Below are positions 31,495 to 32,681 of a stretch of DNA of 64,000 nt, one piece after another (positions within the stretch are counted from its first letter, which is position 1; every line of letters begins with the position of its first letter). Made by a program: the position numbers and the translations under genes. The DNA is from Candidatus Wolfebacteria bacterium RIFOXYD12_FULL_48_21 (lineage in GTDB: Bacteria > Patescibacteriota > Minisyncoccia > UBA6257 > UBA9933). The notes under the pieces are model-generated. The model saw only the letters and a list, made by a program, of their open reading frames with translations. It ran no database searches and had not been told where the DNA came from. Location of the stretch: the NCBI GenBank assembly GCA_001793945.1, contig MGIW01000006.1, forward strand, positions 1,584 through 65,583, given 5' to 3'.

Positions 31495-31581
31495 GGGTGG
31501 GTAGTCCCGTAGGGGCCGGGAGCAGACTGTAAATCTGTCAGGCATGTACTCGCGTGAGTTCGACTCTCACCTCACCCACCA
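31495..31581 (+). tRNA. tRNA-Tyr (anticodon GTA), class II with long variable arm, CCA encoded
   Basis: acceptor GGGTGGG/CTCACCC, anticodon loop CTGTAAA, T-arm GTGAGTTCGACTCTCAC, 3' ACCA. Confidence 0.8.
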
Positions 31582-31612
31582 AAAAAATCCCGCGAGGGAT
31601 TTTTTTATTTTG
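31582..31612 (+). terminator. rho-independent terminator (atcccgcgagggat + T7)
   Basis: hairpin + T-run right after tRNA-Tyr. Confidence 0.6.
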
Positions 31613-31686
31613 TTTTAGTTGGTAGACATATATTTCCATTAAAACTTGCTTTGCTATCCCCGTGATTTATTGGTATACTATGAGTA

Positions 31687-32280
31687 ATGGATATCCAATT
31701 TACTCCTGACATATTAAAAAGACTTTATTTAGAAGAGAAAAAATCAACCTTTGATATTGCAGCGTTATTGCATTGCTCTGAAAATAAGATTAATTATTGG
31801 TTAAAGAAATTTGGTATTTCTAAACGCTCTATCAGTGAGGCAATCTATTTAAAAAAGAATCCTAACGGAGACCCTTTTGTTTTTCGTATGCCAAAAACTC
31901 GAGAAGAGGCTATTCTTTTTGGCATGGGTATCGGTTTATACTGGGGCGAGGGTACTAAAGCGAACGGAAATACTGTGCGATTGGGTAATTCAGATCCTAA
32001 ATTGATTCGAAAATTTATGGATTTTTTAGTCACATTTTTTGCTGTTGACGAGCGCGATTTTCGCTATCATTTGCATATTTTTACCGATATTGATATAAAG
32101 AAGGCATGTCAATTTTGGATGGATGAACTTGGTATTGAAGAAAATCAGTTCTATAAGCCAACCATAACGCGTACCGGTAAATTGGGAACCTATAGGCATA
32201 AAAGCGAATATGGGGTTTTGACAATTTACTACGGAAACATTAAACTGAGGAACAAATTAATAGAAATAGTGCCGATGTAG
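31687..32280 (+). CDS. hypothetical protein with N-terminal HTH-like region and a single LAGLIDADG-like motif (possible homing-endonuclease relative); stop overlaps first 10 nt of intron-containing tRNA
   Basis: 197 aa; EAILFGMGIGLYWGEGTKANG resembles LAGLIDADG block (GLxxGEG); weak. Confidence 0.3.
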   Translation: MDIQFTPDILKRLYLEEKKSTFDIAALLHCSENKINYWLKKFGISKRSISEAIYLKKNPNGDPFVFRMPKTREEAILFGMGIGLYWGEGTKANGNTVRLGNSDPKLIRKFMDFLVTFFAVDERDFRYHLHIFTDIDIKKACQFWMDELGIEENQFYKPTITRTGKLGTYRHKSEYGVLTIYYGNIKLRNKLIEIVPM

Positions 32281-32546
32281 CTCAGTTGGTAGAGCAGCTC
32301 CATGGTGGGTCGCAAACCCCCGCCCACTTCGATAGAGATGTCGAGGTGAATCCCGAATAACGGTTAAAGGCCAGTAATGGTTAAGACCGTGGCGCTCCGG
32401 CGCCCGAACGACTGACAAGGGGATCCTCATTGTTGTAAAAACGAAAGGTTCAAGATACAGTCTAGCCCGTCTATAATTCGCTTTGTGCGATGAAATGAAG
32501 GTGTAAGCGAAGGAGCAGGTCGAAGGTTCGAATCCTTTCATCGGCT
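32271..32546 (+). tRNA. tRNA-Thr (inferred anticodon GGT) interrupted by 203-nt group-I-like intron in anticodon loop (exons 32271-32306 and 32510-32546)
   Basis: 5' half GCCGATGTAGCTCAGTTGGTAGAGCAGCTCCATGGT; 3' half AAGGAGCAGGTCGAAGGTTCGAATCCTTTCATCGGCT; perfect 7-bp acceptor, anticodon stem GCTCC/GGAGC; 5' exon ends in U and intron ends in G. Confidence 0.7.
32307..32509 (+). ncRNA. putative group I intron (self-splicing) within tRNA-Thr
   Basis: 203 nt; contains S-element-like AAGATACAGTCT (cf. group I consensus AAGAUAUAGUC) preceded by GTTC, and R-like GACTGACAAGG; terminal G before 3' exon. Confidence 0.5.
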
Positions 32547-32564
32547 CATTTTTTGTGAAAAGTG

Positions 32565-32637
32565 GCCACCTTAGCTCAGCTGGTAGAGCAACGCATTTGT
32601 AATGCGTGGGTCCGCGGTTCGATCCCGCGAGGTGGCT
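32565..32637 (+). tRNA. tRNA-Thr (anticodon TGT)
   Basis: acceptor GCCACCT/AGGTGGC, anticodon stem-loop ACGCA-TTTGTAA-TGCGT, T-arm CGCGGTTCGATCCCGCG. Confidence 0.8.
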
Positions 32638-32681
32638 CAAAGGTTGCAAAACCGTAAAAATAGTGATATATAATAAAGACT

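What the first reader, a model, noticed from the sequence alone, without database searches (positions are those of the whole stretch)
31687..32546. tRNA-Thr(GGU) split by a 203-nt group-I-like intron, with a LAGLIDADG-like ORF abutting the 5' exon
The exons 32271-32306 and 32510-32546 reconstruct a canonical 73-nt tRNA with a perfect acceptor stem. The only splice that gives a 7-nt anticodon loop and obeys the group I rules (5' exon ends in U, intron ends in G) yields anticodon GGU. The intervening sequence carries an S-element-like AAGATACAGTCT. Group I introns in bacterial tRNA anticodon loops are known but uncommon. The upstream ORF ends 10 nt into the tRNA. It has an HTH-like N-terminus and a single LAGLIDADG-like block (GMGIGLYWGEG). 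It could be a homing-endonuclease-derived or maturase-like gene associated with the intron, although it is encoded outside it.
Basis: partly seen in the sequence, partly recalled or inferred. Interest (0 to 1): 0.65.

Follow-up and report, generated by a model that had tools for sequence, protein, structure and literature searches.

The report
Split tRNA-Thr gene with neighbouring selfish-looking gene
A threonine tRNA gene of an ultrasmall (Patescibacteria) bacterium is interrupted by an already-described kind of self-splicing intron. The gene butting against it belongs to a large unstudied family that always sits at the front edge of tRNA genes and looks like a selfish DNA-cutting element.

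Summary
Exons 32271-32306 and 32510-32546 form a tRNA-Thr(GGU) split at position 36/37 by a 203-nt intron.

Rfam's group I model misses the intron. However, 48 homologous introns show a conserved core and strong covariation for P1-P9, including the P3/P7 pseudoknot, U.G at the 5' splice site and a terminal G. A model built from them cross-detects Rfam-positive tRNA introns.

This intron class is already published for Patescibacteria (Williams 2020; Nakagawa 2026), including its invisibility to RF00028 and ARAGORN's mislabelling of it as Arg(GCG).

The new part is the ORF (31687-32280).
- It belongs to a family of at least 798 protein clusters under strong purifying selection.
- Its N-terminal HTH module is shared with phage HNH homing endonucleases.
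- Its C-terminal domain is only weakly LAGLIDADG-like.
- It abuts tRNA-Thr(GGU) whether or not the intron is present.
- Paralogues abut tRNA-Tyr, Thr(UGU), Trp, Met and Gln, and distant relatives sit in jumbo-phage tRNA clusters.
- Introns also occur without the ORF, and decayed ORF remnants exist.

[quoted passage not shown] Nuclease activity is not shown.

The parts
31495..31581 (+). tRNA-Tyr(GTA), upstream neighbour in the tRNA cluster
   Evidence: ARAGORN
31581..31606 (+). Terminator-like hairpin plus T-run after tRNA-Tyr. It separates tRNA-Tyr from the ORF unit.
   Evidence: Consensus scan only
31651..31679 (+). Promoter-like site TTGCTA-17-TATACT with an extended -10 TG, ending 7 nt before the ATG. 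A leaderless mRNA is likely.
   Evidence: A strong -10 element ends 6-9 nt before the ATG in 43 of 94 homologous loci.
31687..32280 (+). ORF of 197 aa, a member of an uncharacterised tRNA-flanking family. The stop codon TAG is tRNA nucleotides 8-10.
   Evidence: dN/dS is 0.03-0.16.
31705..31857 (+). N-terminal helix-turn-helix DNA-binding module (about residues 7-57)
   Evidence: Matches PHROG 'HNH endonuclease' families phrog_8446 (1.9e-7) and phrog_7545. Pfam HTH_23/HTH_28/NUMOD1 hit many members. AF2 predicts four helices.
31921..31953 (+). LAGLIDADG-like motif GMGIGLYWGEG (residues 79-89) at the end of a long helix. YW-x-EG-x-K is kept in all paralogues.
   Evidence: The Pfam LAGLIDADG_3 hit is sub-threshold.
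31900..32277 (+). C-terminal domain of about 125 aa, the putative catalytic domain. Its fold is confidently predicted but has no significant match to a solved structure.
   Evidence: AF2 pLDDT 91. Foldseek against PDB gives no hit at E<=1e-3; the best TM is 0.44, to an intein homing-endonuclease entry.
32218..32246 (+). Promoter-like site TTGACA-17-TAAACT inside the ORF 3' end, 25 nt before the tRNA start
   Evidence: A site scoring >=9/12 lies in the last 90 nt before the tRNA in 50% of 94 loci, against 5% of control windows.
32271..32306 (+). 5' exon of tRNA-Thr(GGU) (positions 1-36), ending in the anticodon GGU
32307..32509 (+). 203-nt ORF-less group I-type intron at tRNA position 36/37
   Evidence: Literature: PMC13011429.
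32304..32324 (+). P1: GGU|GGG pairs with CCCGCC. U32306.G32322 is the wobble pair at the 5' splice site, and the guide sequence pairs with the anticodon itself.
   Evidence: UG in 48/48 sequences; the intron-side pairs covary (AU/GU/GC).
32325..32348 (+). P2 hairpin with GNRA loop (GAGA)
   Evidence: 9 of 10 pairs show compensatory changes
32351..32354 (+). P3 5' strand (UCCC), pairing with 32419-32422 to form a pseudoknot
   Evidence: 3 of 4 pairs show compensatory changes
32360..32404 (+). P4 (32360-65 with 32385-90), P5 with GUAA loop (32369-82), P6 with UCCG loop (32391-404)
   Evidence: P4 is invariant; P5 and P6 covary
32410..32414 (+). P7 5' strand GACUG, pairing with 32458-32462 (CAGUC)
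   Evidence: Invariant in 48/48, so it gives no covariation evidence
32419..32422 (+). P3 3' strand (GGGG)
32423..32450 (+). P8 hairpin
   Evidence: The five outer pairs all show compensatory changes; 73.5% of cells are paired
32451..32462 (+). J8/7 (UCAAGAUA) plus the P7 3' strand.
   Evidence: Invariant block AAGATACAGTC
32467..32501 (+). P9 hairpin region
   Evidence: 4 of 5 pairs are compensatory; 98% of cells are paired
32509..32509 (+). Terminal G of the intron (omega G)
   Evidence: G in all 48 genome and 109 metagenome homologues. For the metagenome set this was required by the model, and it was also visible in the alignment.
32510..32546 (+). 3' exon of tRNA-Thr(GGU) (positions 37-73). 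The discriminator is U and no CCA is encoded.
32565..32638 (+). tRNA-Thr(UGU), downstream neighbour, with the same U73 discriminator

Best explanation
Two separable genetic elements sit on one tRNA gene of a Patescibacteria (Parcubacteria-like) genome.

**(1) The intron.** tRNA-Thr(GGU) is interrupted between positions 36 and 37 by a small ORF-less group I intron.
- Its guide sequence (GCC) pairs with the anticodon GGU to form P1, with a U.G wobble at the splice site.
- The core (P3-P8, P4-P6, P7) folds, and splicing presumably proceeds by the usual two transesterifications ending at the terminal G. This rejoins GGU|AA to give a normal 73-nt tRNA.

**(2) The ORF.** Directly upstream is a free-standing gene with its own promoter, its stop codon inside the tRNA, and often a tRNA promoter embedded in its 3' end.
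- It encodes an HTH DNA-binding module of the type found in phage homing endonucleases.
- This is fused to a conserved C-terminal domain with a LAGLIDADG-like helix ending in an invariant Glu.

**Most likely reading.** I consider the ORF most likely a site-specific, homing-endonuclease-like selfish gene whose family specialises in tRNA genes. Its subfamilies serve Thr-GGU, Thr-UGU, Tyr, Trp, Met and Gln, and relatives sit in phage tRNA clusters. The intron and the ORF are gained and lost independently but co-occur far more than expected. That fits a 'collaborative homing' relationship, or simply shared preference for the same conserved target.

**Shown:** the anatomy, the RNA structure by covariation, the family-wide tRNA adjacency, the presence/absence polymorphism, purifying selection and the homology of the HTH module.

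**Inferred:** self-splicing, nuclease activity, the cleavage target and any cooperation between ORF and intron.
For: **Intron**
- The split tRNA is found once introns are allowed.
- All 48 genome loci and 109 of 120 metagenome loci fit GGU|intron...G|AA.
- The core is conserved.
- 91.6% of cells are paired against 32-46% in slid controls, and 33 of 55 pairs are compensatory, including P3 of the pseudoknot.
- Model R1 cross-detects the RF00028-positive tRNA-Tyr intron of L035 over nearly its full length (20.3 bits, E about 1e-4).
- The literature describes the same Thr(GGU) 36/37 introns.

**tRNA identity**
- 21 intron-less orthologues at the same position are tRNA-Thr(GGU).
- U73 is present in all 178 alleles and in the neighbouring Thr(UGU).

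**ORF**
- At least 798 protein clusters, all from Patescibacteria where a source is named, and 294 species.
- The stop overlaps the tRNA by exactly 10 nt in 47 of 69 loci.
- dN/dS is 0.03-0.16.
- The HTH module matches PHROG HNH-endonuclease families at 1e-7 to 1e-8, and NUMOD1 hits 15 of 120 members.
- Three weak, independent LAGLIDADG signals: Pfam LAGLIDADG_3, BFVD top hits, and the best PDB TM of 0.44 to an intein homing endonuclease.
- 12 of 13 divergent paralogues abut other tRNAs.
- An independent sample gave Met and Gln.
- 7 of 7 phage relatives lie in tRNA clusters.

**Selfish-element signs**
- The intron occurs without the ORF in 48 loci, and about 7 loci carry internal ORF remnants.
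- L118 keeps a 48-nt remnant of the ORF 3' end.
- Orphan tRNA 5' fragments lie upstream of the ORF in 3 of 91 loci, against a background of 0.0006 per window.

**Association of ORF and intron**
- The intron is present in 48 of 69 ORF+ loci, against 3 of 95 complete Patescibacteria genomes (PMC13011429 Table 1).
- At least 10 intron gains or losses are needed on the ORF tree.
Against: - No nuclease fold or family is significantly matched: Foldseek against PDB and BFVD gives no hit at E<=1e-3, a profile search of PDB sequences finds nothing for the C-domain, and hhalign against I-CreI finds nothing.
- The predicted C-domain topology is not a textbook alpha-beta-beta-alpha-beta-beta-alpha.
- ORF divergence tracks flank divergence, and I found no near-identical ORFs in unrelated contexts. 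Recent horizontal transfer is therefore not shown.
- Very strong purifying selection also fits a host-beneficial gene.
- 3 of 21 ORF+ intron-less alleles keep the exact exon context CCATGGTAAGG seen around the intron. That argues against the ORF product cutting that site.
- RF00028 gives no hit even at E<=10.
- Self-splicing of the Thr(GGU) intron class has not been tested experimentally. The published assays covered the Asn and Asp introns only.
- The enrichment of introns among ORF+ loci is not corrected for phylogeny.
Confidence: 0.55

Rival explanations
1. The ORF is a host-domesticated DNA-binding protein with no nuclease activity. It could be a regulator or a promoter-carrying cassette for tRNA transcription. 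It would be inherited mainly vertically, and its position next to tRNA genes would reflect co-transcription rather than mobility.
For: - dN/dS is 0.03-0.16.
- ORF identity tracks flank identity.
- The HTH domain is the only significantly recognised part, and JGI names some paralogues 'transcriptional regulator'.
- Promoter-like sites are conserved before the ORF and inside its 3' end.
- No nuclease fold match was found.
Against: - The distribution is patchy, with empty sites and decayed remnants.
- Separate subfamilies are each locked to the 5' edge of a different tRNA type.
- Relatives lie inside jumbo-phage tRNA clusters.
- The HTH module specifically matches homing-endonuclease families.
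- Orphan tRNA 5' fragments flank some insertions.
Confidence: 0.22
2. The ORF is an RNA-binding maturase or chaperone, derived from a LAGLIDADG protein, that helps the intron splice or helps the pre-tRNA mature.
For: - The intron is present in 48 of 69 ORF+ loci.
- A Tyr-type paralogue sits upstream of an intron-containing tRNA-Tyr.
- The ORF carries a weak LAGLIDADG-like motif.
- From general knowledge: LAGLIDADG maturases exist in organelles.
Against: - 21 of 69 ORF+ loci have no intron.
- At least 48 intron+ loci have no ORF, so the intron does not need it.
- Paralogues flank intron-less Met, Trp, Gln, Thr(UGU) and Tyr genes.
- The HTH module is a DNA-binding type.
Confidence: 0.07
3. The inserted 203 nt is not a functional group I intron. 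It would be a decayed insertion that makes this copy a tRNA pseudogene, or an intron of another type.
For: - No Rfam group I hit, even at E<=10.
- None of 13 homologous introns reaches the RF00028 gathering score.
- Splicing is untested for this class.
Against: - Strong conservation and covariation across 48 species.
- U.G at -1 and a terminal G are invariant.
- The gene sits in the canonical tRNA cluster as the only Thr(GGU) in the window.
- Cross-detection of Rfam-positive group I introns.
- A bacterial-tRNA-specific group I model detects this class according to PMC13011429.
Confidence: 0.04
4. The ORF belongs to a different kind of mobile element, such as an integrative or transposon-like cassette. 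Such a cassette would insert into the 5' part of tRNA genes and carry a replacement 5' tRNA segment. It would not be a homing endonuclease acting by double-strand-break repair.
For: - Orphan tRNA 5' fragments lie directly upstream of the ORF: 25 nt identical to the Thr(GGU) 5' end in L026, a chimeric pseudo-tRNA in L039, and a half-tRNA in L047.
- The ORF always includes the first 10 nt of the tRNA.
Against: - Only 3 of 91 loci show clean fragments.
- No match to any transposase or integrase family.
- The HxH motif that suggested an HUH enzyme is not conserved in paralogues.
Confidence: 0.1

Closest known systems
Divergent group I introns at position 36/37 of tRNA-Thr(GGU) in Patescibacteria (Williams 2020, bioRxiv 10.1101/2020.01.27.920355; Nakagawa et al. 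2026, PMC13011429)
   Same: - Same host tRNA, same insertion site and same phylum.
- Same failure of RF00028.
- Same ARAGORN mislabelling as Arg(GCG) 34/35.
   Different: Nothing substantive for the intron itself; this window is another member. Those papers report that most tRNA introns lack endonuclease genes, and they do not mention the upstream ORF.
Small tRNA group I introns inserted 3' of the anticodon (Azoarcus tRNA-Ile, Agrobacterium tRNA-Arg; from my own knowledge, plus the review PMC3984707)
   Same: - About 200 nt and ORF-less.
- P1 is formed with anticodon-loop nucleotides.
- GNRA loops on P2 and P5.
- In many homologues, an 11-nt-receptor-like motif in P8.
   Different: The core sequence is too divergent for RF00028. 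Nakagawa et al. class nearly all Patescibacteria tRNA introns as IA rather than IC. I did not assign a subgroup.
[quoted passage not shown]
   Same: - The nuclease-like gene is encoded outside the intron and next to the interrupted gene.
- The intron lacks an ORF.
- The two co-occur strongly.
   Different: - This is a bacterial chromosome and a tRNA gene, not a phage protein gene.
- The target site and the nuclease activity are unknown.
- The ORF also occurs with intron-less tRNAs, and some of those keep the intron-site sequence.
Phage T4 SegB, a free-standing GIY-YIG homing endonuclease in the tRNA gene cluster (PMC2330249)
   Same: A free-standing gene embedded among tRNA genes. SegB recognises a conserved tRNA-gene motif and drives inheritance of the tRNA region. 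Phage relatives of the ORF also lie in tRNA clusters.
   Different: - Different catalytic family, with no GIY-YIG domain here.
- The ORF family has a fixed position abutting the tRNA 5' end and is mostly chromosomal in Patescibacteria.
LAGLIDADG_3 / intein-associated LAGLIDADG endonuclease domains (Pfam PF14528; PDB 7qss)
   Same: - A long helix rich in small residues, ending in an acidic residue followed by a strand and a helix.
- Weak sequence and structure signals.
   Different: - Below every significance threshold.
- Only one motif, shortened hairpins and extra C-terminal strands.
- Membership is not demonstrated.

Membership tests
Group I intron | U at -1 forming a G.U wobble in P1 with an internal guide sequence | tested here: met
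   U.G in 48/48 sequences, flanked by two invariant G-C pairs. The intron-side P1 pairs covary.
Group I intron | Terminal G (omega G) at the 3' splice site | tested here: met
   G at the last intron position in all 48 aligned introns. The window residue is G32509.
Group I intron | Conserved core of P3-P8 and P4-P6 domains with a P3/P7 pseudoknot | tested here: met
   Hand-derived structure: 91.6% of cells paired against 32-46% when slid, and 33 of 55 pairs compensatory. P3 covaries. P4 and P7 are invariant and so uninformative.
Group I intron | Match to the curated covariance model RF00028 | tested here: not met
   No hit at gathering score or at E<=10 in the window, and none in 13 homologous introns. 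This is a known false negative for this class (PMC13011429).
Group I intron | Detectable similarity to accepted group I introns | tested here: met
   Model R1, built from the Thr introns, hits the RF00028-positive tRNA-Tyr intron of L035 (20.3 bits, model positions 6-208 of 213) and the L176 Tyr intron (15.2 bits). The scores are modest.
Group I intron | Guanosine-dependent self-splicing | not testable with these tools
   Needs an in vitro assay. The published assays covered the Asn and Asp introns only.
tRNA-Thr(GGU) | Canonical cloverleaf with a 7-nt loop and anticodon GGU after removal of the intron | tested here: met
   Alternative boundaries (Arg GCG, Pro GGG) violate the U(-1)/G(omega) rule.
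tRNA-Thr(GGU) | Orthology to uninterrupted tRNA-Thr(GGU) genes | tested here: met
   21 loci have an intron-less tRNA-Thr(GGT) in the same position after the ORF. G1-C72, C2-G71 and U73 are shared by all alleles.
LAGLIDADG homing endonuclease | Significant match to a LAGLIDADG profile (Pfam LAGLIDADG_1/2/3) | tested here: not met
   LAGLIDADG_3 scores 16.9 bits against a cutoff of 22.5. Only 5 of 120 relatives hit it, with a best E of 0.0014.
LAGLIDADG homing endonuclease | Alpha-beta-beta-alpha-beta-beta-alpha fold | tested here: inconclusive
LAGLIDADG homing endonuclease | Conserved acidic residue at the C-terminal end of the motif helix | tested here: met
   Glu88 in YWGEG is conserved in at least 90% of members, and in the Tyr, Trp, Met and Thr(UGU) paralogues.
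LAGLIDADG homing endonuclease | Site-specific DNA cleavage | not testable with these tools
   Needs biochemistry.
Free-standing homing endonuclease gene (including collaborative homing) | Encoded outside the intron, adjacent to a conserved target gene, with presence/absence polymorphism and decayed copies | tested here: met
   All four ORF/intron combinations except the untested double-negative were observed. Remnants occur in about 7 loci, plus L118.
Free-standing homing endonuclease gene (including collaborative homing) | DNA-binding module shared with known homing endonucleases | tested here: met
   PHROG HNH-endonuclease families at 1e-7 to 1e-8, NUMOD1 in 15 of 120 members, and a phage HNH endonuclease by tblastn at 3e-3.
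Free-standing homing endonuclease gene (including collaborative homing) | Evidence of horizontal spread (incongruent or near-identical copies in unrelated genomes) | tested here: inconclusive
   No near-identical ORFs in unrelated flanks. The family does span Patescibacteria classes, an Acidimicrobiales-labelled MAG and jumbo phages.
Free-standing homing endonuclease gene (including collaborative homing) | Recognition site coincides with the intron insertion site | not testable with these tools
   Indirect evidence is mixed. Exon positions 29-31 and 39-41 are conserved only in intron+ alleles, but 3 ORF+ intron-less alleles keep that sequence.
Intron maturase | Occurs only with, and is needed by, its intron | tested here: not met
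   21 of 69 ORF+ loci are intron-less, and at least 48 intron+ loci lack the ORF.

The most novel reading that the evidence does not exclude
The ORF represents a previously unrecognised family of homing-endonuclease-like genes. Its catalytic domain would be either extremely divergent LAGLIDADG or new.

The family specifically colonises the 5' boundary of tRNA genes. It does so in Patescibacteria, in at least one Acidimicrobiales-labelled MAG, and in the tRNA clusters of jumbo phages. Subfamilies are tuned to individual tRNAs.

Members borrow the tRNA's U8-A9-G10 as their stop codon and carry the tRNA's promoter inside their own coding sequence. In tRNA-Thr(GGU) and tRNA-Tyr they would cooperate with, or be blocked by, ORF-less group I introns in the anticodon loop. 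That would be a chromosomal, RNA-gene version of collaborative homing.
Probability: 0.4. Interest if true: 0.75.

Novelty: new variant of a known kind. Interest (0 to 1): 0.55.

Why it matters
**The intron.** By itself it adds one more member to a class already described for Patescibacteria. Its practical value is as a reminder that standard tools miss or misname this tRNA: default ARAGORN does not call it, ARAGORN with introns allowed names it Arg(GCG), and Rfam is silent on the intron.

**The ORF.** This is the more valuable lead.
- Published work concluded that tRNA introns in this phylum mostly lack endonuclease genes and are therefore barely mobile. That work looked only inside the introns.
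- A conserved nuclease-like gene parked just outside the tRNA, in hundreds of species, could supply mobility in trans and would change that conclusion.
- The gene is enriched more than twenty-fold at intron-bearing alleles.

**If its activity is confirmed,** it would define a tRNA-gene-specific family of selfish elements shared by ultrasmall bacteria and jumbo phages. It might also add a new endonuclease scaffold with long, natural DNA targets.

Tried and rejected
**Rfam**
- Searching at gathering score and at E<=10 gave no group I hit. I rejected this as refutation after finding the literature explanation and the covariation evidence.

**HUH (Rep/transposase-like) enzyme idea**
- The idea came from 'HLH' on a strand plus conserved Tyr residues.
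- Rejected because the HxH motif is not conserved in paralogues (YLYCY, LSIN) and no Y1/Rep family matches.

**Sequence and structure searches that found nothing for the C-domain**
- Profile search of PDB sequences; only HTH-type hits appeared.
- NCBIfam, which gave only a weak IS630 HTH hit.

**Recent horizontal transfer of the ORF**
- A search for identical ORFs in unrelated flanks found none.

**Upstream remnant in the window**
- A tRNA 5'-half-like remnant (AGTTGGTAGA ... TCCAT at about 31620-31650) does not exceed shuffled controls, so it is not claimed.

**Maturase reading**
- Rejected on distribution.

**Anticodon-nuclease plus resistant-tRNA addiction module**
- Considered and set aside, because the linked tRNA is the canonical single copy in the conserved tRNA cluster.
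Full report
**1. The observation**

The window around 31.5-33.3 kb is a tRNA cluster. It contains tRNA-Tyr(GTA) at 31495-31581, a 197-aa ORF at 31687-32280, the split gene, tRNA-Thr(UGU) at 32565-32638, rpmG, and tRNA-Trp.

Default ARAGORN and Rfam's tRNA model do not call the split gene. With introns allowed, ARAGORN finds a perfect cloverleaf at 32271-32547 with a 203-nt insertion in the anticodon loop.

The boundary can slide by two bases because of sequence redundancy.
- ARAGORN prefers Arg(GCG) at 34/35.
- The placement after GGU (5' exon 32271-32306, intron 32307-32509, 3' exon 32510-32546) is the only one with U before the 5' splice site and G as the last intron base.

**2. Identity of the tRNA**

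I retrieved 80 species-level loci through the ORF protein.
- In 69 of them I could model the gene that follows the ORF. It is always tRNA-Thr(GGU).
- 48 carry an intron of 165-241 nt at the same 36/37 position, and 21 are uninterrupted.
- All alleles share G1-C72, C2-G71 and a U73 discriminator. The neighbouring tRNA-Thr(UGU) also has U73.

The Arg and Pro readings are artefacts of boundary ambiguity.

**3. Is it a group I intron?**

Rfam is negative.
- RF00028 gives nothing in the window, even at E<=10.
- It gives nothing for 13 homologous Thr introns.
- In the same run it does detect a tRNA-Tyr intron (L035, 61.7 bits) and a tRNA-Asp intron (L177, 52.9 bits).

The sequence nevertheless folds well (z = -3.7) into P1, P2, P4-P6, P7/P8 and P9.

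An alignment of 48 introns shows invariant blocks: GCCC, UCCCGAAUAACGGUUAA, AAGACCGU, CGAACGACUGACAAGGG and AAGAUACAGUCUAG. The peripheral helices are variable.

I wrote out a full group I structure, including the P3 and P7 pseudoknot strands, and counted pairs.
- 91.6% of cells form standard pairs, against 32-46% when partners are slid by 1-3 columns.
- 33 of 55 pairs show compensatory changes.
- The covariation score is 0.42, against 0.07-0.12 in the slid controls.
- The splice-site pair is U.G in 48/48 sequences, and the intron ends in G in 48/48.
- P3 covaries (CCC/GGG to CCU/AGG, UCC/GGA).
- P4 and P7 never vary, so they say nothing either way.

A covariance model built from this alignment finds the Rfam-positive Tyr intron of L035 over almost its full length. 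The score is 20.3 bits and the rough E-value is 1e-4.

I conclude that the intron has group I architecture, and that the Rfam miss is a sensitivity problem.

**4. The intron is already known**

Nakagawa et al. 2026 (PMC13011429) list tRNA-Thr(GGU) 36/37 introns in three complete Patescibacteria genomes.
- ARAGORN labels two of the three as Arg(GCG) 34/35.
- They are found by tFind's bacterial-tRNA intron model (Williams 2020).

The same paper reports that about 40% of Patescibacteria genomes carry group I introns. Splicing was shown experimentally only for Asn and Asp introns. The intron in this window is therefore a new member of a known kind.

**5. The ORF**

*Family and conservation.*
- The protein has at least 798 relatives of about 197 aa.
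- All are unnamed. Where a source is given, they come from Patescibacteria lineages: Wolfe-, Lipton-, Ryan-, Moranbacteria, Saccharimonadales and Peribacteria.
- The closest named relative is 84% identical and comes from a Wolfebacteria MAG.
- Identity of 50-64% across classes and dN/dS of 0.03-0.16 show strong purifying selection.

*N-terminal module.* Residues about 7-57 form a helix-turn-helix module.
- It matches PHROG families annotated as HNH endonucleases (E of 1.9e-7 and 1.7e-8).
- It matches Pfam HTH_23 and HTH_28 in about half of members and NUMOD1 in 15 of 120.
- It matches phage HNH and homing endonucleases by tblastn.

*C-terminal domain.*
- It is confidently modelled (pLDDT 88 for the whole protein, 91 for the domain alone).
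- It has no significant match. Foldseek gives no hit at E<=1e-3 in PDB or BFVD, and a profile search of PDB sequences finds nothing.
- Three weak signals point the same way: sub-threshold Pfam LAGLIDADG_3 hits, LAGLIDADG and 'DNA endonuclease' proteins among the top BFVD hits, and the highest TM-score in PDB (0.44) to an intein-associated homing endonuclease.
- The motif helix ends in a Glu (YWGEG-x-K) that is conserved even in distant paralogues.

LAGLIDADG membership is therefore possible but not demonstrated.

**6. What the ORF is really linked to**

The ORF abuts tRNA-Thr(GGU) regardless of the intron. The stop overlaps the tRNA by exactly 10 nt in 47 of 69 loci, which is 31 of 48 intron+ and 16 of 21 intron-less loci.

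Scanning all fetched loci with the family profile found 13 divergent paralogues. Twelve lie within -37 to +23 nt of the 5' end of another tRNA gene on the same strand, or read into it:
- Tyr (three intron-less, one with a 35/36 intron);
- Thr(UGU);
- Trp;
- Met.

An independent search seeded with a Met-type paralogue found 57 clusters. The contexts I looked up show the ORF touching tRNA-Met (L201, L203). In an Acidimicrobiales-labelled MAG it overlaps tRNA-Gln by 15 nt (L205, L206).

Seven distant relatives on jumbo-phage contigs all sit inside phage tRNA clusters.

The family-wide rule is therefore 'next to a tRNA gene', not 'next to an intron'.

**7. Relation between the ORF and the intron**

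I scanned metagenomes with an intron-core pattern, which gave 120 loci. Of these, 109 fit the split tRNA-Thr(GGU) model. Upstream of those 109:
- 33 have an intact ORF;
- 48 have none, despite enough flanking sequence;
- about 7 have internal ORF fragments;
- the rest are too short to judge or have the ORF cut off by a contig end.

L118 lacks the ORF but keeps about 48 nt of its 3' end next to a tRNA+intron that is 98% identical to that of ORF+ L192.

On the ORF tree, the presence of the intron changes at least 10 times among 90 tips. The two elements are therefore separable.

They also co-occur far more than expected. The intron is present in 70% of ORF+ loci, against 3 of 95 complete genomes in the published survey. 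This comparison is not corrected for phylogeny.

The exon bases next to the insertion site (TCCAUGGU|AAGGA) are conserved only in intron+ alleles, while the acceptor and T stems vary equally in both sets. This fits either splicing constraints or co-conversion. However, three ORF+ intron-less alleles keep that sequence, which argues against the ORF product cleaving exactly there.

**8. Other anatomy**

- A promoter-like extended -10 element ends 6-9 nt before the ATG in 43 of 94 loci, including this window (31651-31679). This suggests leaderless mRNAs.
- A sigma-70-like site lies inside the last 90 nt before the tRNA in 50% of loci, against 5% of control windows. In the window it is at 32218-32246. 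The cassette therefore seems to carry the tRNA's promoter.
- In three loci an orphan tRNA 5' fragment lies just upstream of the ORF: L026, L039 and L047. That is 3 of 91 loci, against a background of 0.0006 per window. It hints at recombination within the tRNA gene during insertion.

**9. Explanation and comparison with known systems**

The most economical reading has two parts.
- A free-standing, homing-endonuclease-like gene of an uncharacterised family that targets tRNA genes.

The closest precedents are phage T4 SegB and 'collaborative homing'.
- SegB is a free-standing endonuclease in a tRNA cluster that recognises a tRNA-gene motif (PMC2330249).
- In collaborative homing, a free-standing endonuclease and an ORF-less intron converge on one site in phages (PMC3984707).

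I found no paper describing this ORF family. The Patescibacteria intron paper does not mention it.

The arguments against the selfish-nuclease reading are:
- the lack of any significant nuclease match;
- very strong purifying selection;
- no detected recent horizontal transfer.

A domesticated DNA-binding protein therefore remains a serious rival. A maturase role is unlikely on distribution.

**10. Verdict**

- The intron is ordinary for this phylum.
- The ORF family's systematic placement at tRNA 5' ends appears unreported and is worth experimental follow-up.

Noticed in passing
L110 574-1227; L127 1381-2031(-); L148 10281-10904(-); L176 139-759; L100 3-470; L144 295-942; L061 4139-4819; L117 480-1145(-); L011 5180-5974; L104 10166-10867(-); L177 2396-3100: Divergent paralogues of the ORF (24-48% identity) each lie directly 5' of another tRNA gene on the same strand: Tyr, Thr(UGU), Trp or Met. 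They often read into it.
   Followed up: yes
L205 1501-2301 and L206 425-1225 (GCA_036261495.1, labelled Acidimicrobiales); L207 339-1139: Family members overlap tRNA-Gln(TTG) by 15 nt in a MAG labelled as an actinobacterium, next to rsmA/ispE-like genes. The family may extend beyond Patescibacteria, or the contig may be mis-binned.
   Followed up: partly
L209-L215 (IMG/VR contigs of 100-497 kb): Seven distant relatives carrying the GLYWGEG motif (23-29% identity) on jumbo-phage contigs all lie inside phage tRNA gene clusters.
   Followed up: partly
Proteins P0133, P0135, P0139, P0158, P0160-P0162 and others: Long proteins of 350-820 aa consist of 5-14 tandem repeats of the ORF's N-terminal HTH module (query residues about 6-55). 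Their function is unknown.
   Followed up: no
L026 about 2914-2940; L039 about 2875-2945; L047 about 737-765: Orphan tRNA 5' fragments lie just upstream of the ORF. L026 has 25 nt identical to the 5' end of its own tRNA-Thr(GGU). L039 has a chimeric pseudo-tRNA made of a Thr(GGU) 5' part joined to a Thr(UGU) 3' part. This suggests recombination within tRNA genes.
   Followed up: partly
window 32218-32246, and the equivalent region in 50% of 94 homologous loci: A sigma-70-like promoter is embedded in the last codons of the ORF, 10-30 nt before the tRNA start. It is ten-fold enriched over ORF-internal control windows, which suggests dual coding of protein and tRNA promoter.
   Followed up: partly
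window 31674-31689, and 43 of 94 homologous loci: A strong -10 element ends 6-9 nt before the ORF's ATG, with no room for a ribosome-binding site. The mRNA is probably leaderless.
   Followed up: partly
window 32310-32313 with 32507-32510; A3 columns 12-14 with 308-310: Nucleotides in the P1 loop (UCGC, or UCAU in other species) covary with the last intron bases and the first exon base (GCG|A or AUG|A). The pairing spans the 3' splice site and includes the terminal G. It is not a standard P10 or P9.0, and its role is unexplained.
   Followed up: partly
A3 columns about 202-243 (P8) and 47-50 (L2): Many homologous introns have a GAAA loop on P2 together with a CUAAG...UAUG 11-nt-receptor-like internal loop in P8. 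The window's intron has GAGA and lacks the receptor motif.
   Followed up: no
L035 2626-2920; L177 4073-4368; L126 9694-10032; L176 766-1036: Other intron-containing tRNA genes occur in neighbouring positions: Tyr (a 212-nt intron, RF00028 61.7 bits), Asp (RF00028 52.9 bits), Leu(CAG) (a 267-nt intron) and Tyr with an intron at 35/36.
   Followed up: partly
L118 3669-3716 compared with L192 697-742: An ORF-less locus keeps about 48 nt homologous to the ORF's 3' end upstream of a tRNA+intron that is 98% identical to that of an ORF+ locus. All further flanks are unrelated, which indicates ORF deletion and possibly transfer of the tRNA/intron segment.
   Followed up: partly
L176 1744-1859: Rfam LOOT RNA (RF03000) hit at 49.8 bits, just above its gathering score, downstream of the tRNA cluster.
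   Followed up: no
window 32547-32564: The split tRNA encodes no CCA and is followed by a T-run (CATTTTTTG) 18 nt before tRNA-Thr(UGU). It is unclear whether this terminates transcription or whether the two Thr tRNAs are co-transcribed.
   Followed up: no
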